DNA of 64,000 nt from Vicinamibacterales bacterium (GTDB lineage Bacteria; Acidobacteriota; Vicinamibacteria; Vicinamibacterales; UBA2999), in the NCBI GenBank assembly GCA_035293405.1, contig DATDOE010000113.1, forward strand, positions 28,263 through 92,262. The letters are read 5' to 3'. The notes below the pieces were generated by a model. That model ran no database searches. It saw only the letters and a list, made by a program, of their open reading frames with translations, and was not told where the DNA came from. Position 1 is the stretch's first letter, and every line of letters starts with the position of its first letter. The position numbers were made by a program, and so were the translations under genes. Shown one piece after another: positions 23,407 to 63,564 of the stretch.

Positions 23407-23440
23407 TGCTGTGAAGAAACCCAAGGGGATGAAGGCTGAG

Positions 23441-25416: not shown

Positions 25417-25490
25417 TTTCGAGAGTCCTGCCGACCTGCTGTGGGGCGCTGTCCACAGCCGGAACGGCGGAGTTACAAGCGGTCTTTCGT

Positions 25491-25997
25491 ATGGACTACG
25501 AGTTCCATGTTCAGGATCCGACGTCGCCAGACACGGTATACCTGTTTGAGGCGATCATCGATGCGGCACAACTCGCCACCGAGTTGCGTGGCATCTTCGC
25601 CTTCGCCAGCCAGTCGCGGCTATCGAAAGGGTTCTCGCCGCACAGGTTCCTGCGGCGGGTGGGCGGTGGCACCAGGTACACTTCAAGGTACATGTTCACC
25701 CAGCGCACGCGCGAGATCGGCGTCCGCATGGCGCTCGGTGCGCGGAACGCCGCGTTGAAGCGAATGTTGCTGAGTCAGATACTGCTGGTCACTGTCATCG
25801 GTGTGACTCTGGGTCTCGCCGGAGCGGCGCTGCTGACGCGGCTCATGGAAACGCTGTTGTTCGGCGTTGGCGCACTCGACGCAACGACCTACGTGACCGT
25901 CTCCGCGATCCTCGTCATCACGGCAGCGCTCGCAGCCTATCTGCCGGCCCGGCGCGTGACACGCATCGACTCGATGCAGGCGCTGCGCGCGGAGTAG
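25491..25997 (+). pseudogene. chimeric remnant: unrelated 5' segment fused to the last FtsX/MacB-type permease segment
   Basis: From about aa 75, 'QRTREIGVRMALGARNAALKRML...LFGVGALDATTY...PARRVTRIDSMQALRAE' is the typical C-terminus of a much longer FtsX-domain permease. The N-terminal 70 aa are unrelated. Confidence 0.7.
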
Positions 25998-27882: not shown

Positions 27883-27885
27883 GCT

Positions 27886-27966
27886 GGTTCTTGGTTCCTG
27901 GTTGGTGGTTCCTGGAAGATGGTTTGCGTATTTCCTCTACGAACCATGAACCACGAACCACGAACC
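27886..27966. repeat. heptamer-array inverted repeat, GGTTCST flavour
   Basis: Left: ggttctt ggttcct ggttggt ggttcct (27886-27913). Right: acgaacc atgaacc acgaacc acgaacc (27939-27966). Fills the divergent intergenic region. Confidence 0.9.
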
Positions 27967-27985
27967 AACAGGTATACTCACAAGA

Positions 27986-28795
27986 ATGCCCGTCGATGTC
28001 GAGGCAAAGGTCATTCGCAACACGCGCCTCTCCGCTGACTACAACGTCATCGCCCTCGCTGCTCCCGAGATTGCCGCCGCGGTTGCTCCTGGCCAATTCG
28101 TGATGGTCAAGCCGGGCCGCGGCAACGATCCGCTGCTGCGCCGCCCGTTCTCCGTGTTCGAGATCCTGCGCACCAACGGCGGCGTCGAGGGCCTGACACT
28201 GCTCAGCAAGCGCGTCGGCGTGACGACCCGCATGCTGCTTGACGCCGTCGAAGGCGACATCGTGTCCTGCCTGGGCCCATTGGGAAGACCGTTCGTGCCG
28301 GTCGATCCGCCAGAGGAGGCGTGGATAGTGGCGGGAGGCGTGGGGCTCGCTCCGTTTGCGACACTCGCCGAGGCGTTGCGCGAGCGCGGCACACCAACCA
28401 CCTTGTTCTATGGTGCACGGTCGGGACGCGAGCTCTTCTACCTCGATTGGTTTTCGTCCCGCGGTGTCCGGCTGGTACTGGCCACCGAGGATGGAAGCTC
28501 AGGTGAACGCGGGCGTATCACCGTGCCGCTCGAGCGCGCCCTGCAGCAGACAAAGGGCAGCGCCATGATCTACGCCTGCGGTCCTGAACCGATGCTCGAA
28601 GCCGTCGCGCACATCTCAGGCAAGTACGGCCGGCGATCGCAGGTCTCGGTCGAGCGCGTGATGGGATGCGGAATGGGCGGGTGCTATAGCTGCGTCATTC
28701 CGATGAAGGACACCGGGGGCGGCCATCACTACGTCCGTTCGTGCATCGCTGGCCCGGTCTTCAGCGGTACAGATCTGGTATGGGAACATGACTAA
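27986..28795 (+). CDS. pyrK: dihydroorotate dehydrogenase (NAD+) electron-transfer subunit
   Basis: FAD/NAD-binding fold ('RPFSV', 'GGVGLAPF') and a C-terminal 2Fe-2S Cys cluster 'CGMGGCYSCV...VRSCIAGPVF'. Confidence 0.92.
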   Translation: MPVDVEAKVIRNTRLSADYNVIALAAPEIAAAVAPGQFVMVKPGRGNDPLLRRPFSVFEILRTNGGVEGLTLLSKRVGVTTRMLLDAVEGDIVSCLGPLGRPFVPVDPPEEAWIVAGGVGLAPFATLAEALRERGTPTTLFYGARSGRELFYLDWFSSRGVRLVLATEDGSSGERGRITVPLERALQQTKGSAMIYACGPEPMLEAVAHISGKYGRRSQVSVERVMGCGMGGCYSCVIPMKDTGGGHHYVRSCIAGPVFSGTDLVWEHD

Positions 28796-28936
28796 ACTCC
28801 CAACTCCCAATCCCGCTTCGCGCGCGAGCCAACTCCCAAGAAAGACGCAAGAAGGACAATTGGGAATCGGGAATTGGGAGTTGGCCCGGGTTCGGGTTGG
28901 GAGTTGGGAGTTAGATGGGGTTGGGAGTTGGGAATT
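28795..28936. repeat. heptamer-array inverted repeat, GGGAGTT/GGGAATT flavour
   Basis: Left: aactccc aactccc aatcccg ... aactccc. The long right arm is gggaatc gggaatt gggagtt ... gggagtt gggagtt ... gggagtt gggaatt (28862-28936). Confidence 0.9.
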
Positions 28937-28939
28937 GAC

Positions 28940-30592: not shown

Positions 30593-31171
30593 TTACTTCG
30601 CGGTGATGATGAAGTGCCCGCGGCGGTTTCTCGCGTAGCACGCCTCGGTCATCTCGGTGCAGAGAGGGCTTTCTTCGCCCTTGCTGATCACCGACATGCG
30701 ATCGGCGGCGATGCCCAGCGTCACGAGGTAGTCCTTCACCACGTTTCCGCGCTTCTCGCCCAGAGCCAGGTTGTATTCGTTCGTGCCGCGAGCGTCCGCG
30801 TGTCCCTCGATGGTGACCCGCGTCGATGACCAGCGGCGGAGCCAGTCCGCGTTCTTCTGCAATCCGGCTCGCTGATCCTCACGGACGGCGGCCTGGTCGT
30901 AGTCGAACATCACGTCGCCCAGCGGCATTTCCGCGTTCAGCTGGTCGAGCGTTTTGCGCGCGAAGGTCTCCTCTTCCGTCAGCGGCTTCGGTGCCGCCGG
31001 TGGAGCAGGCGCGGGAGCGGGCGCTGGTGGAGGTGGAGGCGGCGGAGCAGGCGCCGCTGGAGGCGCTGGCGGAGGCGGTGGAGGCGGCGGGATCTTCTTG
31101 GCGCACGCCGACACCGTCAACACGACCAGTAACACGATCGCGATCAACCAGACGCACCGGCGCAGATTCAT
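30593..31171 (-). CDS. pal: peptidoglycan-associated lipoprotein (OmpA-family C-terminal domain)
   Basis: Lipobox-like 'LTVSAC', an approximately 45-aa Pro/Ala linker, and the OmpA_C region 'VTIEGHADARGTNEYNLALGEKRGNVVKDYL'. Confidence 0.85.
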   Translation of the reverse strand: MNLRRCVWLIAIVLLVVLTVSACAKKIPPPPPPPPAPPAAPAPPPPPPPAPAPAPAPPAAPKPLTEEETFARKTLDQLNAEMPLGDVMFDYDQAAVREDQRAGLQKNADWLRRWSSTRVTIEGHADARGTNEYNLALGEKRGNVVKDYLVTLGIAADRMSVISKGEESPLCTEMTEACYARNRRGHFIITAK

Positions 31172-31244
31172 CGGCACATTCTCCTGCATAGACTTGCCTT
31201 CCGGATACCGGGTCGAGCTTAGCGTCCGATCGATCCCGTGTCAA

Positions 31245-34416: not shown

Positions 34417-34655
34417 TCGTCGAGGTCCTCCTCGTCCTCGACCTCATCCTCGTCATCGAGGTCGTCCTCGTCGTCTTCTTCCTCTTCGTCTTCGAGGTCA
34501 TCGTCATCGAGATCATCGTCGTCGCCGGCGACCTCGACTTCGTCGTTGCTAATCATGACCAGGCTTTTCCCGCACTCCGGACAGCTCAATGTATCCCCCT
34601 CCTCGAAGTCCTCGGTATCAATCTCGTCGAATTCGCACTCAGGGCAGGTCGCCAT
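34413..34655 (-). CDS. LysW-like zinc-ribbon protein with ~45-residue polyacidic tail
   Basis: The ATG at 34655 gives 'MATCPECEFDEIDTEDFEEGDTLSCPECGKSLV' (CxxC...CxxC), followed by an almost pure D/E tail ending 'DEEDLDD'. Translationally coupled to larE. Confidence 0.6.
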   Translation of the reverse strand: MATCPECEFDEIDTEDFEEGDTLSCPECGKSLVMISNDEVEVAGDDDDLDDDDLEDEEEEDDEDDLDDEDEVEDEEDLDD

Positions 34656-41528: not shown

Positions 41529-42848
41529 ATGCGCGGGCTGTGGTCCACTCTCGGCATGGTCGTCGTGCTGGCCGGCCTGGTCGGCTACATCTACTTCGTC
41601 GATTCGAAAGGCGAACCAGGTACGCCCGAGGCCAAGGAGAAGGTTTTCGGCGGCACTCTCTCGACGACCGACATCGAAGAGGTGCAGATCACGCTGGCGA
41701 GCGGCGAGAACAGCCGTCTCCAGAAGATCGACGGCACCTGGCGACTCGTGGCGCCCTCTCCGGCGCCCGCCGACGAGAGCGAGTTGACGTCGATCACGAG
41801 CGGGCTCGCGTCCCTCGAGATGCAGCGCGTGGTCGCCGAGAACGCGAGCGACATGAAGCAGTACGGTCTCGACCCGCCCCGCGTCGACGTGTCCTTCAGG
41901 AGCAAAGGGCAGAAAGAGCTGCGACGAATCGCACTCGGCACGAAGACGCCGACCAGCGGAGACATGTACGCGCGCATTCCCGATCAGCAACGTGTGTTCC
42001 TGGTCTCGTCCTTCCTCGATACGACCCTCAACAAGACGCCGTTCGCGCTGCGCGACAAGACGATCCTGAAATTCGATCGCGAGAAGGTCGATGGCCTCGA
42101 GCTCGCTGCCGGGTCGACGGTCATTCAGCTGGCCAAGCGCGGGCAGGACTGGACGATCGTCAAACCGTTTGCCGCACGCGCGGAGTATGCGGCCGTCGAA
42201 GGCTCGCTCGAGCGACTCGGCTCCGCGCAGATGGTCGGGATCGTCGAGCCAGAAGCCACCGACCTCGCGAAGTACGGGCTGGACAAGCCTGCCGTGACGA
42301 TGACTGTGGCGACGGGCAGCTCGCGCGCGTCGTTGACGCTCGGCAAGACCGACAATGCGCTGGTATTCGCGAAGGACTCGTCGCGACCGATGGTGTTCAC
42401 CGTCGCGCCGACGCTGCGAGAGGACGTCTTCAAGCTGGGCTCGGAGTTCCGCCGCAAGGATCTGTTCGACGGGCGTTCGTTTACGGCCAATCGCGTCGAG
42501 CTCCGGCGCGGCAGTGAAACGATCGTGCTGGACAAGAGCAAGGGCAAGGACGGGAAAGACGTCTGGCGCAACGGGGCCGGCAAGGATGTCGAGGCCATGA
42601 AGGCCGACGACCTGCTGACGAAGCTGACCGGCCTTCGCGCCTCGTCATTCGAAGACCAGCCGCACGCATCGCTCAAGATGCCCGCGCTCGTCGTCACTCT
42701 GCGGTTCAACGACAACCGGATGGAGACGGTGACCTTCGGCCGTGCGGGAACCGATGCGTTCGCCAGCCGCGCGGACGAAACCGGATCGGCGACGATCGAA
42801 GGACCCGGGCTCGACGAGGCGATGAAGGCACTCGATGCCGTAAAGTAA
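41529..42848 (+). CDS. DUF4340-like protein
   Basis: N-terminal TM 'LWSTLGMVVVLAGLVGYIYF' followed by repeated beta-rich modules. This is the position normally held by DUF4340 after GldG-like genes. Confidence 0.7.
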   Translation: MRGLWSTLGMVVVLAGLVGYIYFVDSKGEPGTPEAKEKVFGGTLSTTDIEEVQITLASGENSRLQKIDGTWRLVAPSPAPADESELTSITSGLASLEMQRVVAENASDMKQYGLDPPRVDVSFRSKGQKELRRIALGTKTPTSGDMYARIPDQQRVFLVSSFLDTTLNKTPFALRDKTILKFDREKVDGLELAAGSTVIQLAKRGQDWTIVKPFAARAEYAAVEGSLERLGSAQMVGIVEPEATDLAKYGLDKPAVTMTVATGSSRASLTLGKTDNALVFAKDSSRPMVFTVAPTLREDVFKLGSEFRRKDLFDGRSFTANRVELRRGSETIVLDKSKGKDGKDVWRNGAGKDVEAMKADDLLTKLTGLRASSFEDQPHASLKMPALVVTLRFNDNRMETVTFGRAGTDAFASRADETGSATIEGPGLDEAMKALDAVK

Positions 42849-42946
42849 TGCAAGATTCAAAATGCAAAATGCAAAACGTCAACGTGCAGGCGTCGCGTCG
42901 CCGCGATGGCATGCCGTGTTTGCATTTTGCATTTTGCATTTCGCAT
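42848..42946. repeat. heptamer-array inverted repeat, ATGCAAA flavour (4+4 units)
   Basis: Left: atgcaag attcaaa atgcaaa atgcaaa (42848-42875). Right: tttgcat x3, then ttcgcat (42919-42946). 43-nt G+C-rich spacer. Confidence 0.9.
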
Positions 42947-44403
42947 TACTGAGTTGCGCTAAGGGACCTCCGCGCGTTCCCTCTCCCTCGGCGCGCGGGC
43001 CTTCAGAAGCACGCGCGGATCCTGTCACGCAACTTCAGCGACACATCCTGAGCGCAACGCGAATGGCGGGCGTGACCCGCGCCGCGTGGGGCATCGTGGT
43101 GCAGTCGCTCGATCGGAACGAGCGGCTCTTCGAGTTGAATCCACGAACGCTGCTGGTGCCGGCGTCGTCGGCCAAGCTCGTGGGCGTGGCAACCGCGGCC
43201 GAGGCGGTCGGATGGGACTACCGCTACGTGACGACACTCCTGGCCGCGGGCCCGGTCACAGACGGTGTCCTTCATGGAGATCTCATTGCCGTCGGCTCTG
43301 GCGATCCGTCGATCGGTGGACGGGGCGGTGACGATCTCTCCAGTTGGGTTGAGGCGCTCAGGTCGGCGGGCATCCAGAGGATCGAGGGCCGCATCATCGG
43401 CGACGACGATGCGCTCGAGGAGCCACGACCGCAGCTCTCGTGGGCATGGGACGACCTGGGGTACACGACTGGGGTGCTGTTCGGGGCGCTGAACGTTGCC
43501 GAGAACCGCACGGTGGCTACGATTGCACCCGGCGCGTCCGAGGGCACGCCGGCGACACTCCTCGCGGAGGCGCGGGCGGCCTATCGCGGATTGACGAGTC
43601 GCGTGCTGACCGGCCCGCGAGGCTCGACGCAACTCCTGTGGCCGGAACAGCGGCCCGGCGAGCCGGCCCTCACACTGGCGGGCTCGATCCCGACTGGCGC
43701 CCCGCCGGCTCAGATCGATATCTCGGTCGGCAATCCCACACTCTGGTTTGCGAGCGTGTTGCGGGACCGGCTCGTCCGCGATGGCATCGTGGTCACGGGC
43801 GACGCCTTTGACATCGATGATGTCGCGCCAACACCGGATCGTGCGAGCGCGACGGTGCTCTTCACGCACCGCTCACGCCCGCTGTCGGAGATCGTGCGAG
43901 CCCTGCTCAAGGACAGCATCAACCTGTACGGCGAGGCTGTCATGCGGCTCAATGCCCCACGCGACACGCTCGCGACCAACGATGCCGCGCTCGAGGGCCT
44001 GGGGAAACGGCTGGAATCGTGGGGCATTCCAACCGACAGCATCCAACTCGTCGATGGGTCCGGCCTGTCCCGCCGCGATGCGATCTCTCCGGACGCGCTT
44101 CTGCTGGTGCTTCGGCGGATGCACGATCCCACCGGCAAGTCGCCTTTCATGACCGGCCTGCCGATCGCCGGCGTTGACGGTTCGCTCAGCGGGCGGATGA
44201 ACGGCACGCCCGCGGACGCCAACGTCCGCGCGAAAACCGGCACCATGTCCAATATCCGCTCCCTCGCCGGCTACGCGACAACACGCGACGGGGAGCGGCT
44301 GGCGTTCGTGATCATGGTGAACAATTTCGAGGGGACCGGGCCCAGCGCCAACACCGCAATCGATGCGATCGCCGTGCGCCTTGCCTCATTTAGTCGAGAG
44401 TAG
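42862..44403 (+). CDS. dacB: D-alanyl-D-alanine carboxypeptidase/endopeptidase (PBP4, S13)
   Basis: 'LVPASSAKL' (SxxK), 'DGSGLSR' (SxN-like), 'KTGTM' (KTG). The N-terminus is encoded by the heptamer repeat. An alternative GTG start is at 42916. Confidence 0.85.
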   Translation: MQNAKRQRAGVASPRWHAVFAFCILHFALLSCAKGPPRVPSPSARGPSEARADPVTQLQRHILSATRMAGVTRAAWGIVVQSLDRNERLFELNPRTLLVPASSAKLVGVATAAEAVGWDYRYVTTLLAAGPVTDGVLHGDLIAVGSGDPSIGGRGGDDLSSWVEALRSAGIQRIEGRIIGDDDALEEPRPQLSWAWDDLGYTTGVLFGALNVAENRTVATIAPGASEGTPATLLAEARAAYRGLTSRVLTGPRGSTQLLWPEQRPGEPALTLAGSIPTGAPPAQIDISVGNPTLWFASVLRDRLVRDGIVVTGDAFDIDDVAPTPDRASATVLFTHRSRPLSEIVRALLKDSINLYGEAVMRLNAPRDTLATNDAALEGLGKRLESWGIPTDSIQLVDGSGLSRRDAISPDALLLVLRRMHDPTGKSPFMTGLPIAGVDGSLSGRMNGTPADANVRAKTGTMSNIRSLAGYATTRDGERLAFVIMVNNFEGTGPSANTAIDAIAVRLASFSRE

Positions 44404-44904: not shown

Positions 44905-45022
44905 GTCCGGCCGAAGCCGGAGCGACGTACTCGTCTGGTCCGGCTGCCGCCTTCGCGCGCGAAGCGCGCTACGGCGAGCCTCGCCGTAGCCTTTGGCGTA
45001 GGCGGGAAGCCGGACACTACGT
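44905..45022. repeat. cluster of REP-like hairpins
   Basis: TCCGGC-cgaa-GCCGGA, GCGCGC-gaa-GCGCGC, CTACGGCGAG-cc-TCGCCGTAG, and cgtaggcgggaagccggacactacg. Confidence 0.75.
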
Positions 45023-46213
45023 ACTGAGACTGCGCTCGATGTACGAGCGCGCGGCCGCGAGAATCTCGTTCGAATCGCCTGTCAGTCCTGCACCCTGCGC
45101 CAGATCGGCTTTCCCTCCTCCGCGTCCGCCGTAGCGCGAGAGGAGCTGTTGCAGCACGGCGTTCGCATTGATCGCGGCGTCAGCCGAACGAGCAATGACC
45201 ACCGCCATCGGCGGAGCCGACGAGAAGAGCGCCGCGGCGACCTTCTCCTGAGCAGTCATCGCGGTGGCAACCGCCTTCAACCCCGGCGCATCCCACCCGT
45301 CGAGCACGTGCGCCACCAGACGAATCCCTTCGACCTCTGGCGCTTCAGAGAGCAGGCGCGAGGCCTCGTGCACCGCGAGTGACGCCTGCATCCGGCTGAT
45401 CGTCTTGCGGGCCTGCTTGAAGTCGGCCTGCAGACGGTCAACGGCGGCCGGTAGTTCGTGCGGCAGTACCGACAGCGATCGCACGCTGCCCGCCACCGCA
45501 TCGCGGTAAGTGCGGAAGGCGCGAATGGCCCGGCCACCACAGACGAATGTCAGCCGCGAGCCGCCTTTGAAACGCTCGGCTCCGATCACGACAATCGTGC
45601 CGATCTCGCCGGTTCTCGCGACGTGCGTGCCGCCGCACGCGGACAGGTCGAAATCGCTGACCTCGATCAACCGCAGCGGTCCCTGACGAACCGGTTCTTT
45701 CCGCAACGGCAGCTGCGCGGCTTCCTCCGGCGACGCAAAGCGAATCGTCACCGGCCGGTCCTCCCACACAACTCGGTTCGCCTCATCGACGCACCGCTCG
45801 AGATCGGCCGGTGACACATCGCGTGCGAGATCGATCGTCGCGGTTTCGGCCCCCATGTGAAAGCTCATCGTGCGGTTGTCGAGCAGACGATCAAAGGCTG
45901 CCGACAATATGTGCTGCCCGGTGTGCTGCTGCATGTGATCGAATCGTCTTGTCCAATCGACCTCTCCGTGCAGCCGGGAGCCCTCTGGAATCGGCGCGCT
46001 CACGACGTGCCAGATCTCATCGTCCCGATCGATGGTCTCGAGGACGTCGTACGGACCGAGGCGTCCGGTGTCGAAGGGCTGCCCACCCGACGTCGGGTAA
46101 AACGCCGTGCGATCGAGCAGCACGGCTGGCCGGCCCTCGTCCTGGACGAGGCGGGTCACCACTGCGTCAAAGGCGCGGCAGGCCGGCTCGAGGTAGTAGA
46201 TGCGATCGGTCAT
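45017..46213 (-). CDS. alaX: alanyl-tRNA editing protein (AlaX-L type: editing domain + DHHA1)
   Basis: The ATG at 46213 gives '[10 protein letters not shown]'. '[10 protein letters not shown]', 'CGGTHV' and C-terminal '[15 protein letters not shown]'. The start overlaps the queC stop (ATGA). Confidence 0.85.
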
Positions 46214-46908
46214 GGATGTCGCGCGGGATCGACGATGCCGACTTCGGCGAAGCCAGCCGCGCGCAGGACGCAGCTGTCGCAGCGGCCACATGCCGCTCCG
46301 CCGGGCCCTGGATCGTAGCAACTGTGTGTCAGGCCGTAGTCGAGACCGAGATCGATGCCGCGCTTGATGATGTCGGCCTTGGTCATCATCTGCAGCGGCG
46401 CGTGAATCCGAAACCGTTCGCCCTGCACGCCTCTAGCCGTCGCCAGTGAGGCCAGCTCCTCGAAGGCCCGAATGAACTCCGGCCGGCAGTCCGGGTATCC
46501 CGAGTAATCCAGCGCGTTCACGCCGATGACGATGTCGTGAGCGCCGAGCACCTCGGCCCAGCCGAGTGCCAGCGCCAGGAAGATGGTGTTTCTGGCAGGA
46601 ACGTACGTCGACGGGATCTCCGAGTCCCGAGTCCCGAGTCCCGAGTCCCGAGCCATGGGCCGGTCCTTCGGCACCGGCGCGTCCGTCGTCAGAGAAGAGC
46701 CGCCAAACGCCGACAGGTCGACGTCGAGCTCGATGTGCCGCGCGGTGCCCAGCCGCTTCGCAAGGACACGGGCGGCCTCGATTTCAGCCGCATGCCGTTG
46801 CCCATAGCGGATGGTCAGGGCGAAGAGACGGAATCCCTCCTCGCGCACGATGGCCGCGGCCGTGTAGGAATCGAGCCCTCCGCTCAATAGGACCACTGCG
46901 TCAGACAT
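46210..46908 (-). CDS. queC: 7-cyano-7-deazaguanine synthase
   Basis: PP-loop 'VLLSGGLDS', '[10 protein letters not shown]', and the Zn site '[21 protein letters not shown]'. Contains an in-frame heptamer array. Confidence 0.92.
46621..46648. repeat. four perfect tandem heptamers (CGAGTCC) inside queC coding sequence
   Basis: cgagtcc x4 followed by cgagcca. It is translated in frame as '[12 protein letters not shown]'. Confidence 0.9.
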
Positions 46909-46981
46909 ACGGATTGGTGACTAGAGATTATGGACTATCGATTGGTTGGCGATTGCTGACGTGTGATCGGCGGTTGCTGGG

Positions 46982-47623
46982 TCAGACACCGCGTGCGGTG
47001 GGACTCCAGATGTACTTGTGGAGTTGGAGCTGCACGCGCACGGGAAGGCTGTCGGCCAGGACCCACTCGGACAGGGTCTTCGGATCGAGTACGCCGTGCA
47101 CCGGAGAGAAGTGGATGGCGGCTGCCCGGCCAGGCAGCTCGTGTCGGGTGATCACGTCGCGGGCGAAGTCGTAGTCGGTGCGATCCGCGATGACGAACTT
47201 GACCTCGTCGTGCGGCCGGAGCCGGCTCAGGTTGTCCCAGTCGTTGTGTGCGACCTCTCCGCTGCCTGGACACTTGACGTCGAGGATGGTCACCACGTCC
47301 GCGGGCACGCGCGCGGTGCTGCGATGCCCTCCGGTTTCGAGCAGCACGGTCTTGCCGCGCTCGAGCAGCCCGTGCATCAGCGGATAGACGTCCTCCTGCA
47401 GGAGCGGTTCACCGCCCGTGACCTCGACCAGGGGACAGCCGAACCGATCGACCTCACCGAGCACCTCCTCGAGCGACCGCTTGCTGCCCTCGTGAAACGC
47501 GTACGGGGTATCACACCAGGTGCAGCGCAGATCGCAGGCGGTCAACCGCACGAACACGCACGGCCGGCCCGCGTAGGTCGACTCTCCCTGCACTGAGTAG
47601 AAGATCTCGTTGATGGTGATCAT
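46982..47623 (-). CDS. queE: 7-carboxy-7-deazaguanine synthase (radical SAM)
   Basis: The ATG at 47623 gives 'MITINEIFYSVQGESTYAGRPCVFVRLTACDLRCTWCDT'. The rest of the 520-aa ORF is antisense to the DUF72 gene. Confidence 0.92.
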   Translation of the reverse strand: MITINEIFYSVQGESTYAGRPCVFVRLTACDLRCTWCDTPYAFHEGSKRSLEEVLGEVDRFGCPLVEVTGGEPLLQEDVYPLMHGLLERGKTVLLETGGHRSTARVPADVVTILDVKCPGSGEVAHNDWDNLSRLRPHDEVKFVIADRTDYDFARDVITRHELPGRAAAIHFSPVHGVLDPKTLSEWVLADSLPVRVQLQLHKYIWSPTARGV

Positions 47624-47626
47624 TTC

Positions 47627-47709
47627 CGGGATTCGGGATCCGGGACTCGGGATCCGGCGGATTCGGTCGTTCACATTTCGAATCCCGAATCCCGAATCCC
47701 GAGTCCCGG
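47627..47709. repeat. heptamer-array inverted repeat, CGGGATT flavour
   Basis: Left: cgggatt cgggatc cgggact cgggatc cggcggatt cgg. Right: cgaatcc x3, then cgagtcc (47679-47706). Loop of about 12 nt. Confidence 0.9.
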
Positions 47710-47722
47710 CTATTGTACCGGC

Positions 47723-48703
47723 GTGGGCCTTCACATCGGCACGTCCGGGTGGAACTACCCGTCCGGCAAGGGCACATGGAACGGCCTCTTCTACCCGGCC
47801 ACCCGCTCCAAGCGGGCTGGGACCGCCGACTTCGACGAATTGCGCTTCTACGCCGAGCACTTCCGCACAGTGGAAGTGAACTCGACTTTCTACGGTCAGC
47901 CACGGCCTGAGGTGTCGCGCACGTGGGTCGAACGCACGCCTCCGGGATTCGAGCTCTCGCTGAAGCTCTATCAGAAATTCTCCCACCCGAAGATGTTCCG
48001 GGAGACCGCGCTGAAGCGGGCGCCAGGATCGGAGGGACCCCTGCTCGACCTGCTCGCCGAGGTCACACAGAGCGATATCGACGAGTTCCGCGCCGGCATC
48101 GAGCCGCTGGCATCGTCGGGCCGGCTCGGCGCGCTGCTCGCGCAGTTTCCCGCCAGCTTCAAGGACAGCCCGGCGTCCCGCGATTACCTCGCGCAACTCC
48201 TGCGCGCGTTCGGCGACTACCCGACCGCCGTGGAGCTGCGGCACAAGAGCTGGAGCGATGCCATCGGCGACACGCTGGCGATGCTGAACGCCTTCGGCAC
48301 GGCCTGGGTCCAGATCGACGAGCCGAAGTTTCGTTTCTCGATTCGGCAGAACTATCTGCCCAACGTGACCGGCTTCTACTACATGCGCCTCCACGGCCGG
48401 AACGCAGCGCAGTGGTGGCGGCACGACGCGAGTGAAGACCGCTACAACTATCTCTATTCGGGACGGGAGTTGAAGGAGTTCTCCGACATTGCCGGGGCCG
48501 CGAAGGCGCTCGTGAAGAAATCGTATCTCTACACGAACAACCACTTCGCCGCGAAGTCAGTGGTGAACGCCGTGATGATCAAAGCGCAGCTCGGAGAACC
48601 GATTGAAGGGGAGTATCCGCCCGAGCTCGTCGAACGCTATCCGGATATCGCCGACCTCGTGACTACTTCGCCGCGGTCTCCTTCACGGTTGCCCGTCGAA
48701 TGA
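47723..48703 (+). CDS. DUF72 (YecE/UPF0759) family protein
   Basis: GTG start. 'IGTSGWNYPSGKGTWNGLFYP', 'FRTVEVNSTFY'. Confidence 0.85.
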   Translation: MGLHIGTSGWNYPSGKGTWNGLFYPATRSKRAGTADFDELRFYAEHFRTVEVNSTFYGQPRPEVSRTWVERTPPGFELSLKLYQKFSHPKMFRETALKRAPGSEGPLLDLLAEVTQSDIDEFRAGIEPLASSGRLGALLAQFPASFKDSPASRDYLAQLLRAFGDYPTAVELRHKSWSDAIGDTLAMLNAFGTAWVQIDEPKFRFSIRQNYLPNVTGFYYMRLHGRNAAQWWRHDASEDRYNYLYSGRELKEFSDIAGAAKALVKKSYLYTNNHFAAKSVVNAVMIKAQLGEPIEGEYPPELVERYPDIADLVTTSPRSPSRLPVE

Positions 48704-50008: not shown

Positions 50009-50029
50009 CGGGATTCGGGATTCGGGATT
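50009..50029. repeat. three tandem heptamers (CGGGATT), single arm
   Basis: cgggatt cgggatt cgggatt, between nth and the M28 peptidase gene. Confidence 0.85.
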
Positions 50030-50043
50030 CGCCAGAGCGAAAC

Positions 50044-51426: not shown

Positions 51427-51644
51427 CGGTCACTCCGGATCCCGGTGCACCGTCTCCATCGAAAACGCCGGTAGACACACCGCGATGTATTCTGCGCCGC
51501 CCAGAGGCGTGCTGTAGCGCACCCATTCTCCAGCCGCGGTCAACTACTGCCTGACCGGCGACCTGCGTATTCCTCGATGCGCTTCGGAGGCGTACCCGCA
51601 GCCTGAACAATGGTCGGAGTTTGAATAAGTCGGGGCATTCTTCT

Positions 51645-51722
51645 GGTTCCTGGTTCGTGGTTCGTGGTTGAAAAGTCGGGAGTTGGGAGTTGGGAGTTGG
51701 CTCGGAGATCGAGTTGGGAGTT
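51645..51722. repeat. two adjacent heptamer arrays of different flavour (GGTTCGT then GGGAGTT)
   Basis: ggttcct ggttcgt ggttcgt ggttgaa, then gggagtt x3, ggctcggagatcga, gttgggagtt. Confidence 0.9.
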
Positions 51723-52570: not shown

Positions 52571-52673
52571 GGCTTTGGGCCTTGGGGAGTTGGCGAAGCC
52601 GCGCCGAAGCGCGCTGGACTCATGCGCGAAGGCGGGGGAGTTGGCTAGGAGATCTGGTTGGGAGTTGGGAGTT
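52571..52673. repeat. heptamer arrays, GGGAGTT flavour, flanking a G+C-rich hairpin
   Basis: 'ggctttg ggccttg gggagtt ggcgaag', then GCGCGC-cgaa-GCGCGC, then 'gggagttggctaggagatctggttgggagttgggagtt'. About 30 nt are shared with 51692-51722. Confidence 0.85.
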
Positions 52674-53622: not shown

Positions 53623-53657
53623 ACTTTCTACTTTACACTTCGCACTTTGCACTTGTT
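53623..53657. repeat. five tandem heptamers (ACTTNNN), single arm
   Basis: actttct actttac acttcgc actttgc acttgtt. Fills the gap between the small Cys protein gene and the dehydrogenase gene. Confidence 0.85.
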
Positions 53658-53879
53658 CTAGTGTCCAAGCGATTTGCAGTATCCGCAGTGATTGCACGTC
53701 ACGGCGGGCTCGATGATGCACAGGCCCTCGCCCTCGGCGCCAGCGGGCACTGAGAACGTCGAGTGGCTCGCATGCATGCGCGCGGACGCGACGGGGGTCG
53801 TGGAGGGCTCGCTGAACCGCCCCGCGCCCTGCCGGGCGATGACATCTCGCACGAGCGCGCGCAGTTCCTGTTCCGTCAT
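53658..53879 (-). CDS. small BMC-associated protein: N-terminal amphipathic helix + C-terminal 4-Cys motif
   Basis: 73 aa. 'MTEQELRALVRDVIARQ' is followed by a linker and 'CIIEPAVTCNHCGYCKSLGH'. ATGA overlap with the upstream BMC-P gene. Confidence 0.55.
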   Translation of the reverse strand: MTEQELRALVRDVIARQGAGRFSEPSTTPVASARMHASHSTFSVPAGAEGEGLCIIEPAVTCNHCGYCKSLGH

Positions 53880-54148
53880 TCGACTGTGTCCACCTGATCG
53901 ACGATGCCGATGATGGCGGCATCCACCGGCGCCGCTTTCCGCCCGAGCGCCTCGCCGGCGGCGCGGCCTTCGATGACGACCAGCACCTTCTCGTCGATTC
54001 CGGCGCCGACGGAGTCAACTGCCAGCAGCACGGTGCCCCTCGGGGCGTCGTCCAGGCCGATCGGCTGGACGAGCAGCAGCTTCGCGCCTTCGAACTTGGC
54101 GTGCTTCTGTGTCGAGACGACGGTGCCGACAACGCGTGCGAGTTGCAT
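53876..54148 (-). CDS. BMC-P (EutN/CcmL pentamer) shell vertex protein, paralogue 3
   Basis: 'MQLARVVGTVVSTQKHAKFEGAKLLLVQP...AVDSVGAG...VDAAIIGIVD'. Confidence 0.9.
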   Translation of the reverse strand: MQLARVVGTVVSTQKHAKFEGAKLLLVQPIGLDDAPRGTVLLAVDSVGAGIDEKVLVVIEGRAAGEALGRKAAPVDAAIIGIVDQVDTVE

Positions 54149-54156
54149 GGTCCTCT

Positions 54157-54205
54157 GGGCCGCCTAAAGGCGGCCCCTACGTGACGACTGAAGGCGGCTC
54201 CTACG
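54157..54205. repeat. REP-like hairpin + half copy inside BMC operon
   Basis: GGGCCGCC-taaa-GGCGGCCC ctacg, then tgaaggcggctcctacg. Confidence 0.85.
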
Positions 54206-54467
54206 CGACATCGATCTCGTCGACGATGCCGACGATGCCGGCGTCGGTTGGCACTTCCGTCGGGTAGAACGGAAACGAGGCTTCCTTGCCGCGCACGAAA
54301 AACACCGTTTCACCCACACCCGCTCCAACCGCGTCGACGGCGACCAGCGTTCGGCCGACGGCGCGGCCGTCAGGCGCCAGCGGCTGCAGCACCATCAGCT
54401 TGAGGCCGTGCAGATTGTCGTCCTTGATGGTGACGACGACGTCGCCGATGACCCTGGCCAGTTGCAC
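54201..54467 (-). CDS. BMC-P (EutN/CcmL) shell vertex protein, paralogue 2
   Basis: The GTG at 54467 gives 'VQLARVIGDVVVTIKDDNLHGLKLMVLQP...AVDAVGAG...DAGIVGIVD'. Confidence 0.85.
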   Translation of the reverse strand: MQLARVIGDVVVTIKDDNLHGLKLMVLQPLAPDGRAVGRTLVAVDAVGAGVGETVFFVRGKEASFPFYPTEVPTDAGIVGIVDEIDVA

Positions 54468-54471
54468 GAGA

Positions 54472-54747
54472 TCAGTCGCCCGCGGCGACCTCCACGTGGT
54501 CGACGATCCCGACAATGGCGGCATCGACCGGACAATCTTTCAGACCCGACGCCATGCGCGCCGAGCTGCCACTCACAATCAACACGGTCTCGCCAACGCC
54601 GGCGTCGACGGTGTCGATGGCCACGAGATAGTTGCCTTCGGCCTTGCCGTGGGGATCCATGGGGCGGGCGACGAGCAGCTTGCTGCTGACCAGACGCGGG
54701 TCCTTCCGCGTAGCGACAACCGTCCCGACGATGCGGGCCAGGATCAT
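54472..54747 (-). CDS. BMC-P (EutN/CcmL) shell vertex protein, paralogue 1
   Basis: 'MILARIVGTVVATRKDPRLVSSKLLVARP...AIDTVDAG...VDAAIVGIVD'. Confidence 0.9.
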   Translation of the reverse strand: MILARIVGTVVATRKDPRLVSSKLLVARPMDPHGKAEGNYLVAIDTVDAGVGETVLIVSGSSARMASGLKDCPVDAAIVGIVDHVEVAAGD

Positions 54748-54762
54748 GCGGGGTACGACAGG

Positions 54763-55059
54763 TTATGCCTTTATGCCGGCGGTAGACTTGCCAATCGGGA
54801 GCGCGTCCTCGAGGTTGGCATGAGGCCGTGGGATGACGTGCACGGACACCAGCTCGCCCACGCGGCGAGCCGCCGCCGCGCCAGCATCAGTGGCGGCCTT
54901 GACCGCGGCCACGTCGCCACGGACGATCGCCGTCACGTACCCGGCGCCGATCTTCTCCCAGCCGACCAGCGTGACCTTCGCGGCTTTGACCATGGCGTCG
55001 GCCGCTTCGATCATCGCGACCAGGCCCTTGGTCTCCACCATTCCGAGCGCCTCTCCCAT
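54763..55059 (-). CDS. BMC-H (PduA/CcmK-type hexamer) shell protein
   Basis: '[54 protein letters not shown]'. Confidence 0.92.
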
Positions 55060-57646: not shown

Positions 57647-57657
57647 GAACCTCTGAA

Positions 57658-57783
57658 ATTCAAAATGCAAAATGCAAAATGCAAACATCACGTCGTCGGC
57701 AGCAACGAGGCACAAGCGGATCGCTTGTCACACAAATGCTGCGAATGACTTTCTGTTTGAATTTTGAATTTTGCATTTTGAAT
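57658..57783. repeat. heptamer-array inverted repeat, ATGCAAA flavour (4+4 units)
   Basis: Left: attcaaa, then atgcaaa x3 (57658-57685). Right: tttgaat tttgaat tttgcat tttgaat (57756-57783). The 70-nt spacer holds its own hairpin, ACAAGCG-gat-CGCTTGT. Confidence 0.9.
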
Positions 57784-59144
57784 TACCCCATGGTCTCTTT
57801 GACCGCGTCGATAATCTCCTGGCCCCATCGTCGAATCTCGCCTTCGTCCTGGCCTTCGAGCATCACCCGGAGCAGAGGCTCGGTGCCGGAGTAGCGAACC
57901 AGCAGTCGTCCGCTCCCCGCCAGCCGCGCCTCGACCGATGACATCACGGCGGCGACTCTGGGGATGGTCTGGAGATCGACCTTCTGCGGCACGCGCAGGT
58001 TCATCAGTACCTGCGGGTAGGTCGTGAGGTCCGACGCCAGGTCGGCGAGCTCGCGGCCGGTCGCAGCCATGGTCCTCAGGACGTTCAGAGAGGTGGCCAG
58101 ACCGTCGCCGGTGAACAGGTAGTCCGAGAAGATGATGTGTCCCGATTGCTCGCCGCCGAGCGAGAGATCGCGGCGCATCATTTCTTCCATCACGTACTTG
58201 TCGCCGACGGACGTACGAAGCATTGCGATACCGGCCTTGTGCAGCGCGAGCTCCAGGCCGATGTTGCTCATGACCGTGGCCACGATGGCGTTGCCCTTCA
58301 GTCGTCCCTCGGCCTTCATGCGCAAGGCGCACATGAGCATCACGGCATCGCCGTCCACGACCGCGCCGTTCGCGTCGATGAAGATCGCGCGATCGCCATC
58401 TCCGTCGAACGCCACGCCGAGCGGGTACCGACCCTCGACGACAACTTTCGAGAGCAGCGTGGGATCGGTCGAGCCACAGCCCAGGTTGATGTTCCGGCCG
58501 TCCGGCTGACTCCCGATGTGATGCACGTCGAACCCGAGATCCTGGAACAGTCGCGGCGCCACCGTGGTGGTGGCGCCGTTGGCGCAGTCCACGGCGATGC
58601 GCATGCTGGCGGTCCGTGCGCCCTGGGGCAGGATCTCGCGCAAGTGTCCGATGTACTCGGACCGCAGATCGACTTGCTCGACCGCATCCGCGTCGCCGGC
58701 GGCAACGCTCCACGACCCGTCAGCGACGATCGCTTCGACACGCTGCTCGAGGGTTTCGGTGAACTTTTCGCCGGCGCCCGAGAACACTTTGATGCCGTTG
58801 TCCTCGAACGGATTGTGTGACGCCGAGAGGACCACGCCAGCCGTATAGCCCATGCGCGGTGTGAGGTAGGCGACGGCGGGCGTCGGAATGATCCCGGCGC
58901 TCGTGAGCGTTCCGCCCTGGCTCCGGATTCCAACGGCCAACTCGCGCTCGATCCACGTGCCGGACTCGCGCGTGTCACGGCCGGCCAGAAGCCTGATGAC
59001 GGGACGTGCACCGTCTCCTGAAGGCACCTCGTCATGCCGCAGCACGCGCACGAGCGCGGCGCCAAGCCGCCGGATGGTTGGAACATCCAGCGGAGGGTCT
59101 CCCGCCCTGCCGCGCACTCCGTCCGTGCCGAACAACCGCGCCAT
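57783..59144 (-). CDS. glmM: phosphoglucosamine mutase
   Basis: 'LFGTDGVRG', 'GVVLSASHNPFEDNGIK', 'AFDGDGDR', 'GGEQSGH'. Confidence 0.95.
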   Translation of the reverse strand: MARLFGTDGVRGRAGDPPLDVPTIRRLGAALVRVLRHDEVPSGDGARPVIRLLAGRDTRESGTWIERELAVGIRSQGGTLTSAGIIPTPAVAYLTPRMGYTAGVVLSASHNPFEDNGIKVFSGAGEKFTETLEQRVEAIVADGSWSVAAGDADAVEQVDLRSEYIGHLREILPQGARTASMRIAVDCANGATTTVAPRLFQDLGFDVHHIGSQPDGRNINLGCGSTDPTLLSKVVVEGRYPLGVAFDGDGDRAIFIDANGAVVDGDAVMLMCALRMKAEGRLKGNAIVATVMSNIGLELALHKAGIAMLRTSVGDKYVMEEMMRRDLSLGGEQSGHIIFSDYLFTGDGLATSLNVLRTMAATGRELADLASDLTTYPQVLMNLRVPQKVDLQTIPRVAAVMSSVEARLAGSGRLLVRYSGTEPLLRVMLEGQDEGEIRRWGQEIIDAVKETMG

Positions 59145-61510: not shown

Positions 61511-61528
61511 GAAGGAACACTACACCAA

Positions 61529-61632
61529 GTGCAAAGTGCAAAGTGGAAAGTGCAAAGTCCGTGAAAAGTCAAAAGTGCGAAGCAAGTGAGTACTTCTCAC
61601 TTACTTCGCACTTCACACTTCGTACTTCAAAC
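61529..61632. repeat. heptamer-array inverted repeat, GTGCAAA/TTCGCAC flavour
   Basis: Left: gtgcaaa gtgcaaa gtggaaa gtgcaaa (gtcc) gtgaaaa gtcaaaa gtgcgaa gcaagtgag. Loop: tact. Right: tctcac ttac ttcgcac ttcacac ttcgtac ttcaaac. Confidence 0.9.

Positions 61633-63564
<1,932 letters not shown>

What the first reader, a model, noticed from the sequence alone, without database searches (positions are those of the whole stretch)
46618..46654. Four perfect heptamers embedded in frame inside queC
'cgagtcc' occurs four times (46621-46648), with degenerate flanks, inside an essential-looking biosynthetic gene. It encodes '[12 protein letters not shown]' in the variable loop between the conserved '...[10 protein letters not shown]' and '[10 protein letters not shown]' segments. 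The unit is the same flavour as the intergenic arrays 0.7-3 kb away (47627, 50009). Because 7 is not a multiple of 3, gain or loss of one or two units would frameshift queC. That would make it a potential slipped-strand on/off switch for queuosine synthesis. Otherwise the array is evidence that these repeats can invade and be tolerated in coding loops.
Basis: seen in the sequence. Interest (0 to 1): 0.65.

Follow-up and report, generated by a model that had tools for sequence, protein, structure and literature searches.

The report
Heptamer-repeat insertion inside queC loop
A short run of 7-base repeats, of a kind that fills the gaps between genes in this soil acidobacterium, sits in frame in a flexible loop of the tRNA-modification enzyme QueC; relatives carry longer versions or none, nearly always in three-repeat steps that keep the gene readable, so it looks like tolerated repeat DNA rather than a genetic switch.

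Summary
Window 46620-46652 is a perfect 7-nt tandem array (4.7 units). It lies inside queC (minus strand, 46210-46908) of a Vicinamibacterales MAG.

About 90% of close QueC relatives (124 of 138) have a short native loop (PIDPNE, 18 nt). One small clade has that 18 nt replaced by heptamer arrays. Five alleles are exactly 6 (window), 9, 12, 15 and 15 heptamers long, which are the unit counts that keep the frame.

The longer alleles have two complementary arms and fold into hairpins of -45 to -77 kcal/mol. The window allele keeps only the G-rich arm and has no special fold.

The same kind of array fills about 13 intergenic spacers in the window. queC is the only clearly intragenic case.

queC is under strong purifying selection (dN/dS 0.04-0.17). 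Array length is identical within clusters of at least 90% identity. No out-of-frame allele was seen.

Best reading: a tolerated, in-frame, one-armed remnant of a lineage-typical heptamer-array element. It changes by whole-unit slippage or deletion, filtered by the reading frame.

The on/off-switch idea is arithmetically correct but has no supporting evidence. This is a known kind of thing with a clean new example.

The parts
46620..46652 (-). Perfect heptamer tract, 4.7 units (CTCGGGA / GGGACTC on the coding strand; CCGAGTC on the + strand)
   Evidence: TRF: 100% matches, score 66. Exact 28-mer match against 0 expected in shuffles.
46618..46659 (-). 42-nt segment of exactly 6 heptamers (CCCATGG, CTCGGGA x4, CTCGGAG). 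It replaces the native 18-nt loop (CCGATCGATCCCAACGAG, PIDPNE) and encodes P84-E97 ([14 protein letters not shown]), a net gain of 24 nt or 8 aa.
   Evidence: Heptamer-register decomposition and comparison with the native allele L008.
46210..46908 (-). queC (7-cyano-7-deazaguanine synthase), 232 aa, intact, with all catalytic and Zn-ligand residues conserved
   Evidence: TIGR00364 at 192.5 bits. PDB 2PG3/3BL5 at E=1e-34. Invariant SGGLDS and Cys columns. dN/dS 0.035-0.17.
46626..46649 (-). Canonical G-quadruplex consensus (G3N4)3G3 on the coding strand, created by the array
   Evidence: Regex scan. ViennaRNA with the G-quadruplex option does not prefer it over an ordinary hairpin fold.
47625..47708 (.). 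Two-armed heptamer-array element of the same flavour in the queE/DUF72 divergent spacer: (YYCGGGA)x4, a 21-nt spacer, then (CGARTCC)x4. It abuts the queE start codon.
   Evidence: RNA fold -52.6 kcal/mol, z=-3.9, 0 of 200 shuffles as stable.
50009..50031 (.). One-armed array (CGGGATT x3.3) of the same flavour, between divergent genes (HhH-GPD glycosylase and M28 peptidase)
46909..46981 (-). queE-queC spacer made of degenerate CAATCNC-type heptamers. It is absent in L002/L003/L004, where queE and queC overlap.
46982..47623 (-). queE (7-carboxy-7-deazaguanine synthase), upstream gene of the same operon
   Evidence: TIGR04349 at 264 bits. Gene order conserved in L001-L008.
45017..46213 (-). AlaX-like tRNA-editing gene. 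Its start overlaps the queC stop (ATGA), so a queC frameshift would probably also disturb translational coupling.

Best explanation
The tract is the one-armed remnant of a two-armed heptamer-array element. Such elements (array, short turn, complementary array) occupy most short intergenic spacers in this Vicinamibacterales lineage. In one sub-clade an element replaced the 18-nt tip of a flexible loop of QueC. It is translated as a low-complexity (GTRDSGL)n peptide and tolerated there. It has no dedicated function. Its length changes by gain or loss of whole heptamers, through replication slippage or deletion across the hairpin. Selection for an intact QueC lets only frame-preserving totals survive, which are multiples of three units (21 nt). 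The window allele (6 units) most likely arose from an L002-like 15-unit allele by a 63-nt (9-unit) deletion. That deletion removed the turn and the C-rich arm, and with them the mRNA/DNA hairpin. SHOWN: the tract and its position; its absence from most orthologues; the 6/9/12/15/15-unit series; hairpins in relatives but not in the window; purifying selection; length stability among near-identical strains; the intergenic family. INFERRED: the direction of change (two arms ancestral); slippage as the mutational mechanism; purging of out-of-frame variants; neutrality at the protein level; how the element first got into the site.
For: 1. Insertion status. 124 of 138 close relatives have the 15-residue native loop. 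The native GGSSLT-to-IPSTYVP distance of 63 nt is seen in 43 of 57 loci.
2. Allelic series. The replaced segment is 42, 63, 84, 105 and 105 nt in window, L003, L005, L002 and L004. That is exactly 6, 9, 12, 15 and 15 heptamers in one continuous 7-nt register. The chance that 4 of 5 distinct in-frame lengths share one residue mod 21 is about 0.013. L006 has 8 units plus 1 nt, a frame restored by a different route.
3. Structure. The two-armed alleles fold at -45 to -77 kcal/mol (z -3.6 to -5.9; L006 weaker at -35.8 kcal/mol, z -2.6). The window allele folds at -23 kcal/mol (z +0.43).
4. Family. There are 14 stringent period-7 arrays in the window against 0 in shuffles. All the others lie in or abut intergenic spacers. 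Intergenic pairs fold with z -3.7 to -7.8. Fetched loci of Vicinamibacterales and other Acidobacteriota carry 1.1 such arrays per 10 kb, against 0.25 in other phyla.
5. Gene kept functional. dN/dS is 0.035-0.17, the same range as against the insertion-free allele L008. Catalytic columns are invariant.
6. Tolerant site. Residues 69-105 have pLDDT below 50 and no secondary structure. The insertion aligns to a gap in 2PG3. Other lineages carry unrelated insertions in the same loop, including P0009 with that clade's own GGGGATC flavour.
7. No hypervariability. P0002/P0265 (one of them seen on 4 contigs), P0003/P0266 and P0009/P0267/P0268 have identical loop lengths.
Against: - The insertion-free alleles L008/L009 nest inside the insertion clade, as sister to L004 at 91% DNA identity. 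No insertion allele retains the native 18 nt. A single gain followed only by slippage is therefore not enough; repeated gains at one site or short-patch recombination must also have occurred.
- The window tract is perfectly homogeneous, whereas the arms of L002 are not. That suggests recent slippage or homogenisation, so the tract is mutationally active.
- Retention of an insertion across a clade with dS up to about 0.7 could also mean it is useful rather than merely tolerated.
- All sequences are metagenome consensus contigs, which hide minority length variants.
- The mechanism of spread of the heptamer families is unknown.
Confidence: 0.75

Rival explanations
1. Contingency (phase-variation) locus. 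The heptamer tract slips by single units at high frequency. This reversibly frameshifts queC, so queuosine synthesis is switched on and off within the population.
For: The unit length is not a multiple of 3, and the tract is perfect and 33 nt long. Changes of +/-1 or +/-2 units give truncated, Zn-site-less products of 127-160 aa. Unit number has clearly changed during evolution of the clade. The L006 allele (8 units + 1 nt) could be read as a compensated out-of-frame state.
Against: - The tract has only 4.7 units. In the validated heptamer phase-variable tract of H. influenzae hmw, natural alleles have 11-63 units and fewer than 10 are rare. Hypervariability there also needs a hairpin partner and RNase III (PMC12721329). 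The window allele has lost its partner arm.
- No out-of-frame allele was found among 57 loci checked in all frames, or among the full-length relatives examined from the 5.8-billion-protein database.
- Length is identical in near-identical strains from different contigs.
- dN/dS downstream of the tract is as low as upstream.
- queC is a housekeeping tRNA-modification gene placed mid-operon and overlapping the downstream start codon. It is not a surface or restriction-modification gene (established knowledge of contingency loci).
Confidence: 0.06
2. The insertion is functional. Either the extra peptide modifies the mobile active-site lid of QueC, or the RNA/DNA structure it forms (a hairpin in relatives, a G-quadruplex in the window allele) regulates translation or mRNA processing of the queE-queC-alaX operon.
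For: The insertion is kept in frame across a clade with dS up to about 0.7. It is flanked by the most conserved motifs of the enzyme. Relatives carry very stable intragenic hairpins. The window allele has a canonical (G3N4)3G3 motif on the mRNA strand. Four-unit G-rich heptamer arrays form G4 in vitro in Xanthomonas and Nostoc (PMC4692102).
Against: - Neither peptide length nor peptide sequence is conserved (8 to 29 extra residues).
- The structure is not conserved: there is a hairpin in relatives and none in the window.
- L008/L009 within the clade, and about 90% of relatives, manage with the native loop.
- pLDDT is below 50 across the region.
- ViennaRNA with G-quadruplex energies does not favour the G4.
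- The same arrays occur in every intergenic context: divergent, convergent and tandem.
Confidence: 0.1
3. Origin in situ. The arrays were not copied in from an intergenic element but grew locally by slippage from the native sequence. That sequence already contains heptamer-like seeds (GGACCGG on the left, CGATCGATCCC on the right).
For: The native site AAGGACCGGCCGATCGATCCCAAC resembles both arm units (GGGACTC and CGATCCC/GGATCCC). The right arm of L006 is (GATCCCC)n, very close to native GATCCC. Heptamer slippage is a general bacterial tendency (Mrazek 2007, as summarised in PMC4692102 and PMC4679880).
Against: - The units in queC are the same limited flavour found at other loci of the same genome (47625-47708, 50009-50031).
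- The independent L007 insertion uses the GGGGATC flavour seen in the intergenic arrays of its sister contigs L016/L019.
- The orthologous spacer upstream of queE carries different flavours in close relatives, which implies copying between loci.
- Local slippage does not easily create a complementary second arm.
Confidence: 0.2
4. Chance similarity or an assembly artefact.
For: Short repeats can be mis-assembled, and the window and L001 are the same assembly.
Against: No match occurred in 100 shuffles. The tract is shorter than a sequencing read. The frame is intact. Related arrays at the identical site occur in six other metagenome assemblies from different samples.
Confidence: 0.01

Closest known systems
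Over-represented heptameric SSRs of large high-GC and cyanobacterial genomes: GGGAATC in Xanthomonas, GGGGA(C/T)T in Nostoc (Rehm et al. 2015, PMC4692102; Mrazek et al. 2007 as cited there)
   Same: Both are tandem 7-nt G-rich units dispersed over the chromosome and mostly intergenic. Arrays cluster around four units here (3.3-4.9 copies), as in the four-unit preference reported there. Both sit close to start and stop codons. A minority are intragenic (7-11% in Xanthomonas, about 32% in Nostoc). Both match the G4 consensus. GGGACTC arrays themselves occur in Xanthomonas translucens.
   Different: Here there are several unrelated unit flavours, including AT-rich ones that cannot form G4. Arrays mostly come as complementary pairs that form long hairpins. 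The present case also has an orthologue series showing the insertion and its change in 21-nt steps.
Geobacter metallireducens 'four tandem heptanucleotide repeat' elements (GGACCGG consensus, 49 copies, inside and between genes; PMC2700814)
   Same: Both have four tandem G-rich heptamers in many copies, and both are explicitly found within genes as well as between them. The native queC site even contains one GGACCGG.
   Different: In Geobacter they were proposed to be regulatory RNA elements. No two-armed architecture or allelic series has been described. The phylum is different.
Cyanobacterial STRR (short tandemly repeated repetitive) heptanucleotides (Calothrix/Nostoc; own knowledge, cited in PMC4692102) and TAACTGA repeats of Beggiatoaceae (PMC4679880)
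   Same: These are lineage-typical families with a few heptamer flavours, 2-6 copies per set, found in intergenic spacers next to start codons. Their function and mode of spread are unknown.
   Different: TAACTGA contains stop codons in the forward orientation and is almost never inverted (1 of 170 sets). The flavours here are stop-free in all six frames and are usually paired with a complementary arm.
Rickettsia palindromic elements (RPE) inserted in frame in protein-coding genes (Ogata et al. 2000; reviewed in PMC10969869)
   Same: Both are dispersed palindromic repeats found in frame inside conserved housekeeping genes. Both are absent from orthologues, sit at positions compatible with the fold, and are translated.
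   Different: RPEs are conserved elements of about 100-150 bp that encode a conserved peptide. Here the element is built from variable numbers of 7-nt units, has no conserved peptide beyond the repeat, and the window copy is no longer palindromic.
SSR contingency loci, e.g. the ATCTTTC heptamer tract of H. influenzae hmw1/2 (PMC12721329)
   Same: Both are heptamer tracts capable of slipped-strand change. In hmw the tract also pairs with a complementary G-rich arm in a long hairpin.
   Different: The hmw tract has 11-63 units, lies in a 5'-UTR of an adhesin gene, and varies between isolates and between passages. The queC tract has 4.7 units, lies mid-ORF in a housekeeping gene, has no partner arm, and shows no variation among near-identical strains.

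Membership tests
Heptameric simple-sequence-repeat families (Mrazek 2007 / Rehm 2015 type) | Head-to-tail repeats of a 7-nt unit, at least 3 copies, near-perfect | tested here: met
   4.7 copies at 100% identity.
Heptameric simple-sequence-repeat families (Mrazek 2007 / Rehm 2015 type) | Genome-wide over-representation of period 7 relative to other periods, mainly intergenic | tested here: met
   Tested on the window only. There are 14 period-7 arrays, against 0-4 for periods 5, 6 and 8-11 and 0 in shuffles. All but queC lie in or abut spacers.
Heptameric simple-sequence-repeat families (Mrazek 2007 / Rehm 2015 type) | Preference for about four units; G4 formation for the G-rich classes | tested here: inconclusive
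   Arrays have 3.3-4.9 units, and the queC tract fits (G3N4)3G3. AT-rich flavours cannot form G4, however, and ViennaRNA does not favour the G4. Biophysical testing is not possible with these tools.
SSR contingency (phase-variable) locus | Repeat in an ORF or promoter whose unit-number change alters expression | tested here: met
   A change of +/-1 or +/-2 units truncates QueC to 127-160 aa.
SSR contingency (phase-variable) locus | Unit-number polymorphism, including OFF alleles, among closely related strains or within a population | tested here: not met
   No out-of-frame loop was found in 57 loci. Lengths are identical within clusters of at least 90% identity. Only frame-preserving differences were seen between lineages. 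Read-level heterogeneity was not testable.
SSR contingency (phase-variable) locus | Tract long enough for high slippage rates | not testable with these tools
   The tract has 4.7 units. The validated heptamer tract in hmw has at least 11 units in nature (PMC12721329).
In-frame palindromic repeat insertions (RPE-like) | Member of a dispersed repeat family inserted in frame in a conserved gene and absent from orthologues | tested here: met
In-frame palindromic repeat insertions (RPE-like) | Insertion at a surface or loop position compatible with the fold | tested here: met
   The model has pLDDT below 50 and no secondary structure for residues 69-105. The insertion aligns to a gap in the 2PG3 sequence. 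This rests on prediction only, not on solvent-exposure analysis.
In-frame palindromic repeat insertions (RPE-like) | Conserved element sequence of about 100-150 bp encoding a conserved peptide; palindromic | tested here: not met
   Alleles are 42-105 nt, built from variable heptamers. The window copy has one arm only and folds with z=+0.43.
MITE / REP-REPIN type mobile elements | Terminal inverted repeats with target-site duplication, or an associated transposase (RAYT / IS200-IS605 TnpA) | tested here: inconclusive
   Arms are inverted repeats in the relatives, but no target-site duplication is recognisable because the junctions lie within repeat-like sequence. No transposase domain was found among about 60 ORFs of the window scanned against Pfam or NCBIfam. 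A 64-kb window cannot exclude one elsewhere in the genome.

The most novel reading that the evidence does not exclude
The tract is a working contingency switch. Single-unit slippage of the perfect heptamer run generates reversible queC-OFF cells, so a soil acidobacterial population is heterogeneous for queuosine-modified tRNA and hence for decoding. The 6/9/12/15-unit series would then be the in-frame 'ON' states sampled by consensus assemblies. A less dramatic but likelier novelty (about 0.3) is that the two-armed heptamer arrays form a distinct, actively copying element class. On that view they repeatedly target this GATC-containing site and turn over between flavours at orthologous spacers.
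Probability: 0.06. Interest if true: 0.7.

Novelty: new member of a known kind. Interest (0 to 1): 0.4.

Why it matters
It is a clean natural experiment on what happens when a non-triplet repeat lands in an essential part of a coding sequence. Five independently sampled alleles differ by exact multiples of three heptamers (21 nt), which shows the reading frame acting as a filter on slippage. It shows that the active-site-proximal loop of QueC tolerates 8 to 29 extra low-complexity residues. It adds Vicinamibacterales to the lineages whose intergenic DNA is saturated with heptamer arrays; the others are Xanthomonas, Nostoc, Geobacter and Beggiatoaceae. Here the arrays take an unusual paired, hairpin-forming arrangement whose origin and role are unknown. 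For annotation, it is a warning that such arrays create long spurious ORFs and inflated N-termini. Examples are the 520-aa 'QueE' ORF in the window and the GTRDSGL-repeat 'hypothetical proteins' in databases.

Tried and rejected
1. A search of the 5.8-billion-protein set with the loop peptide plus flanks returned mostly short spurious ORFs over GGGACTC arrays (Xanthomonas translucens, Exilibacterium) and QueC fragments. It gave no additional insertion alleles. Some fragments are frameshifted QueC from error-prone assemblies, with the shifts outside the loop, so they are not evidence of switching.
2. A re-search with the 253-aa allele P0002 found no further GGGACTC-type alleles. Only six exist in the database, plus one of another flavour.
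3. The metagenome and GTDB scans gave few members of the insertion clade. The source species is not among the GTDB representatives (best hit 80%).
4. Rfam at gathering thresholds found nothing in the window. The promoter/terminator scan around the locus was at background.
5. On the G-quadruplex idea, the motif is present but is not preferred in ViennaRNA folding.
6. A protein NJ tree was too poorly resolved, so I replaced it with a DNA tree. Even that leaves single gain versus repeated gain undecided.
7. My first guess at the start codon of the ORF at 17024 was out of frame (error). Whether the array at 17664-17711 overlaps that gene's 5' end remains open.
8. Chance and assembly artefact were both rejected.
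Full report
OBSERVATION. Window 46620-46652 is a perfect tandem array of a 7-nt unit: CCGAGTC on the + strand and GGGACTC/CTCGGGA on the coding minus strand. It has 4.7 copies, 100% matches and a TRF score of 66. The 28-mer (CGAGTCC)x4 matches exactly at 46621-46648, and no match occurred in 100 dinucleotide-preserving shuffles. The array lies inside ORF 46210-46908(-), which is QueC. The ORF scores 192.5 bits against TIGR00364 (cutoff 150.3) and E=1e-34 against the QueC structures 2PG3 and 3BL5. The tract encodes ...[25 protein letters not shown].... The identical protein is annotated in NCBI as QueC of a Vicinamibacterales MAG (Acidobacteriota). The neighbours are queE upstream (46982-47623) and an AlaX-like gene whose start overlaps the queC stop.

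IT IS AN INSERTION. Among 138 full-length relatives (roughly 73% identity or more), 124 have a 15-residue stretch between SSLT and IPSTYVP, typically [15 protein letters not shown]. The other 14 have something longer. At DNA level the GGSSLT-to-IPSTYVP distance is 63 nt in 43 of the 57 loci where both motifs could be located in any frame. None of those 57 loci is out of frame. The closest relatives of the window protein (P0002, P0003, P0005, P0007, P0008) carry longer insertions at exactly this place.

THE ALLELIC SERIES. I fetched the contigs for these alleles and wrote each loop in heptamer register. The native 18 nt (CCGATCGATCCCAACGAG) is replaced as follows:
- 42 nt in the window: CCCATGG, CTCGGGA x4, CTCGGAG.
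- 63 nt in L003.
- 84 nt in L005.
- 105 nt in L002.
- 105 nt in L004.
These are exactly 6, 9, 12, 15 and 15 heptamers, each in one continuous 7-nt register. Because 18 is divisible by 3, only unit numbers divisible by 3 keep the frame, and those are the numbers seen. The chance that 4 of 5 distinct in-frame lengths share one residue mod 21 is about 0.013. L006 has 8 units plus one extra base (57 nt), so its frame is preserved by a different route. L007 belongs to another clade and has 51 nt built from GGGGAGC/GGGGATC units. Its sister contigs L016 and L019 have the native loop but carry GGGATCG arrays in a nearby spacer. L007 is therefore an independent event that uses that lineage's own flavour.

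TWO ARMS IN THE RELATIVES, ONE IN THE WINDOW. L002-L006 consist of a G-rich arm (CTCGGGA)n, a one-unit turn (CTCGACC or similar), and a C-rich arm (CCCGGAT/CCCGAAT/CCCGAGT)n. As RNA they fold into long hairpins:
- L003: -45.4 kcal/mol.
- L005: -60.5 kcal/mol.
- L004: -77.3 kcal/mol.
- L002: -77.5 kcal/mol.
These four have z-scores of -3.6 to -5.9, and none of 200 shuffles folds as well. L006 is weaker, at -35.8 kcal/mol (z -2.6, 3 of 200 shuffles as stable). The stems are 6-bp helices interrupted by a 1-nt mismatch every 7 nt. The window allele folds no better than shuffles (-23 kcal/mol, z +0.43). It shares its left junction (CCCATGG) with its nearest relative L002 (94.3% DNA identity outside the loop) and is exactly nine units (63 nt) shorter. 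The simplest reading is a deletion that removed half of the G-rich arm, the turn and the C-rich arm. This direction of change is inferred, not shown.

THE SAME ELEMENTS FILL THE INTERGENIC SPACERS. A stringent period-7 scan finds 14 arrays in the window. It finds none in 20 shuffles and 0-4 arrays for periods 5, 6 and 8-11. TRF lists still more arrays. I made crude GC3-based gene calls and checked about 60 ORFs against Pfam or NCBIfam. On that basis the arrays lie in about 13 spacers of every type: tandem, convergent and divergent. They often start at a stop codon or end at a start codon. One array, at 17664-17711, may overlap an uncertain 5' gene end. queC is the only clearly internal case. 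Five unit flavours recur: AAATGCA, CAACTCC, GGTTCCT, GGGAYTC and AAGTGCA. Most loci are arranged as arm, spacer, complementary arm, and fold at -34 to -56 kcal/mol with z -3.7 to -7.8. The orthologous spacer upstream of queE has GGGAYTC arrays in the window and L004, but GGGAGTT/CAACTCC arrays in L003 and L008. Flavours therefore turn over at a fixed site, which argues for copying between loci rather than purely local slippage. Fetched loci of Vicinamibacterales and other Acidobacteriota have 1.1 such arrays per 10 kb, against 0.25 in other phyla.

IS IT A SWITCH? The arithmetic holds. Changes of -2, -1, +1 or +2 units give products of 153, 127, 160 or 134 aa without the C-terminal Zn site, whereas +/-3 units give 225 or 239 aa. 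The comparative data point the other way:
- No out-of-frame allele was seen.
- P0002/P0265 (one of them seen on four contigs), P0003/P0266 and P0009/P0267/P0268 have identical loop lengths despite substitutions elsewhere.
- Fixed length changes appear only at dS of about 0.2 or more.
- dN/dS across both halves of the gene is 0.035-0.17, the same range as against the insertion-free L008.
- In the best-studied heptamer phase-variable tract (H. influenzae hmw), natural alleles have 11-63 units and fewer than 10 are rare. Hypervariability there requires the tract's hairpin partner and RNase III (PMC12721329). The window tract has 4.7 units and no partner.
These are consensus contigs and gene-call-based databases, so low-frequency OFF variants cannot be excluded. 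I put the switch reading at about 0.06.

WHY THE SITE TOLERATES IT. An AlphaFold2 model (27-sequence alignment, mean pLDDT 72.6, pTM 0.74) gives pLDDT below 50 and no secondary structure for residues 69-105. That stretch covers the whole loop, including its conserved flanks. The insertion aligns to a gap in the 2PG3 sequence. Several other lineages have unrelated insertions here: P0054, P0060, P0076, P0088, P0241, P0261, and P0195 with an EIPKSxNx duplication. The conserved flanks suggest a mobile lid near the active site. 'Tolerated' is therefore an inference from purifying selection and persistence, not from an assay.

OPEN POINT. In the DNA tree the insertion alleles form one clade, but the native-loop alleles L008/L009 nest inside it as sister to L004 at 91% identity. 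No insertion allele retains the native 18 nt, so deletion alone cannot regenerate it. Either the site was hit more than once, or short-patch recombination moved one allele type between lineages. The first option is plausible because the native sequence contains the unit-like GGACCGG and CGATCCC, and because L007 shows an independent hit. How the heptamer flavours spread is unknown. No transposase domain occurs among the window ORFs I scanned, but 64 kb cannot settle that.

COMPARISON WITH WHAT IS KNOWN. Over-represented heptamer SSRs are documented in several groups:
- GGGAATC in Xanthomonas and GGGGAYT in Nostoc. They prefer four units, are mostly intergenic with 7-32% intragenic, and form G4 in vitro (PMC4692102).
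- Four tandem GGACCGG units at 49 intergenic and intragenic sites in Geobacter metallireducens (PMC2700814).
- TAACTGA in Beggiatoaceae (PMC4679880).
- Cyanobacterial STRR (own knowledge).
In-frame palindromic repeats inside housekeeping genes are known from Rickettsia RPEs (PMC10969869). The queC tract is a new member of the first kind and behaves like the RPEs. It is not an RPE, because it has no conserved 100-150-bp element or peptide. It also fails the polymorphism criterion for a contingency locus. What goes beyond the literature I could find is the paired, 6+1-periodic hairpin arrangement, the multiple flavours, and the orthologue series in 21-nt steps.

VERDICT. This is a moderately interesting, well-documented example of a known phenomenon. 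The more intriguing question is the lineage-wide two-armed heptamer arrays around it.

Noticed in passing
window 1150-1243, 2561-2600, 17664-17755, 27884-27968, 28795-28937, 42847-42947, 47625-47708, 51643-51720, 52580-52673, 53630-53654, 57656-57784, 61527-61634: Almost every short intergenic spacer holds heptamer arrays, usually arranged as arm, spacer, complementary arm. Five unit flavours recur. The elements fold into long hairpins (z -3.7 to -7.8) whose stems are 6-bp helices separated by a 1-nt mismatch every 7 nt. Their function and mode of spread are unknown.
   Followed up: partly
window 46909-46981; L008 2518-2597; L007 672-740: The queE-queC spacer is itself a degenerate CAATCNC heptamer tract. 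In L002, L003 and L004 the two genes overlap and have no spacer, so this tract is also an insertion.
   Followed up: partly
window 47625-47708 compared with L003 1685-1780, L004 435-531, L008 1759-1875: The orthologous spacer upstream of queE carries GGGAYTC arrays in the window and L004, but GGGAGTT/CAACTCC arrays in L003 and L008. L008 is only 9% diverged from L004 in queC. Flavours therefore turn over at a fixed site.
   Followed up: partly
all heptamer flavours in the window: AAATGCA, AAGTGCA, CAACTCC, GGTTCCT, GGGAYTC, GGATCCC and ACGAACC are all free of stop codons in all six frames. For their GC classes the expectation is 18-85% each, giving a joint probability of roughly 0.02. The degenerate CAATCAC flavour is not stop-free.
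   Followed up: partly
window 46982-48544 (-) and similar ORFs: Because the arrays contain no stop codons, mechanical ORFs run through them. The QueE ORF extends to 520 aa, although the real protein is 213 aa. Public databases contain 'hypothetical proteins' made of GTRDSGL repeats, from Xanthomonas translucens and Exilibacterium tricleocarpae among others. These are translations of GGGACTC arrays.
   Followed up: partly
window ~20600-25500: A lower-GC island (57-61% against about 65%) encodes an Eco57I-like/N6 DNA methylase, an N6_N4 methylase and a PLD-like nuclease. It is probably a horizontally acquired restriction-modification cassette, inserted between the pyrimidine-biosynthesis genes and an FtsX-like gene.
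   Followed up: partly
P0195, P0054, P0060, P0076, P0088, P0241, P0261 (QueC of other lineages): The same QueC loop carries unrelated insertions in other lineages. One example is the tandem EIPKSPNP/EIPKSLNA duplication in P0195. The loop is a general hot spot for length change.
   Followed up: no
window 53876-55059: This is a cluster of three EutN/CcmL pentamer genes and a BMC-domain shell gene, next to a class II aldolase. It is a bacterial microcompartment locus in an acidobacterium.
   Followed up: no
window 30993-31091 and 34420-34524: TRF reports triplet-multiple low-complexity repeats with periods of 6-42. The first lies inside the OmpA-family ORF 30593-31189(-). The second lies in a stretch where I called no gene. 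They differ in kind from the heptamer arrays.
   Followed up: no
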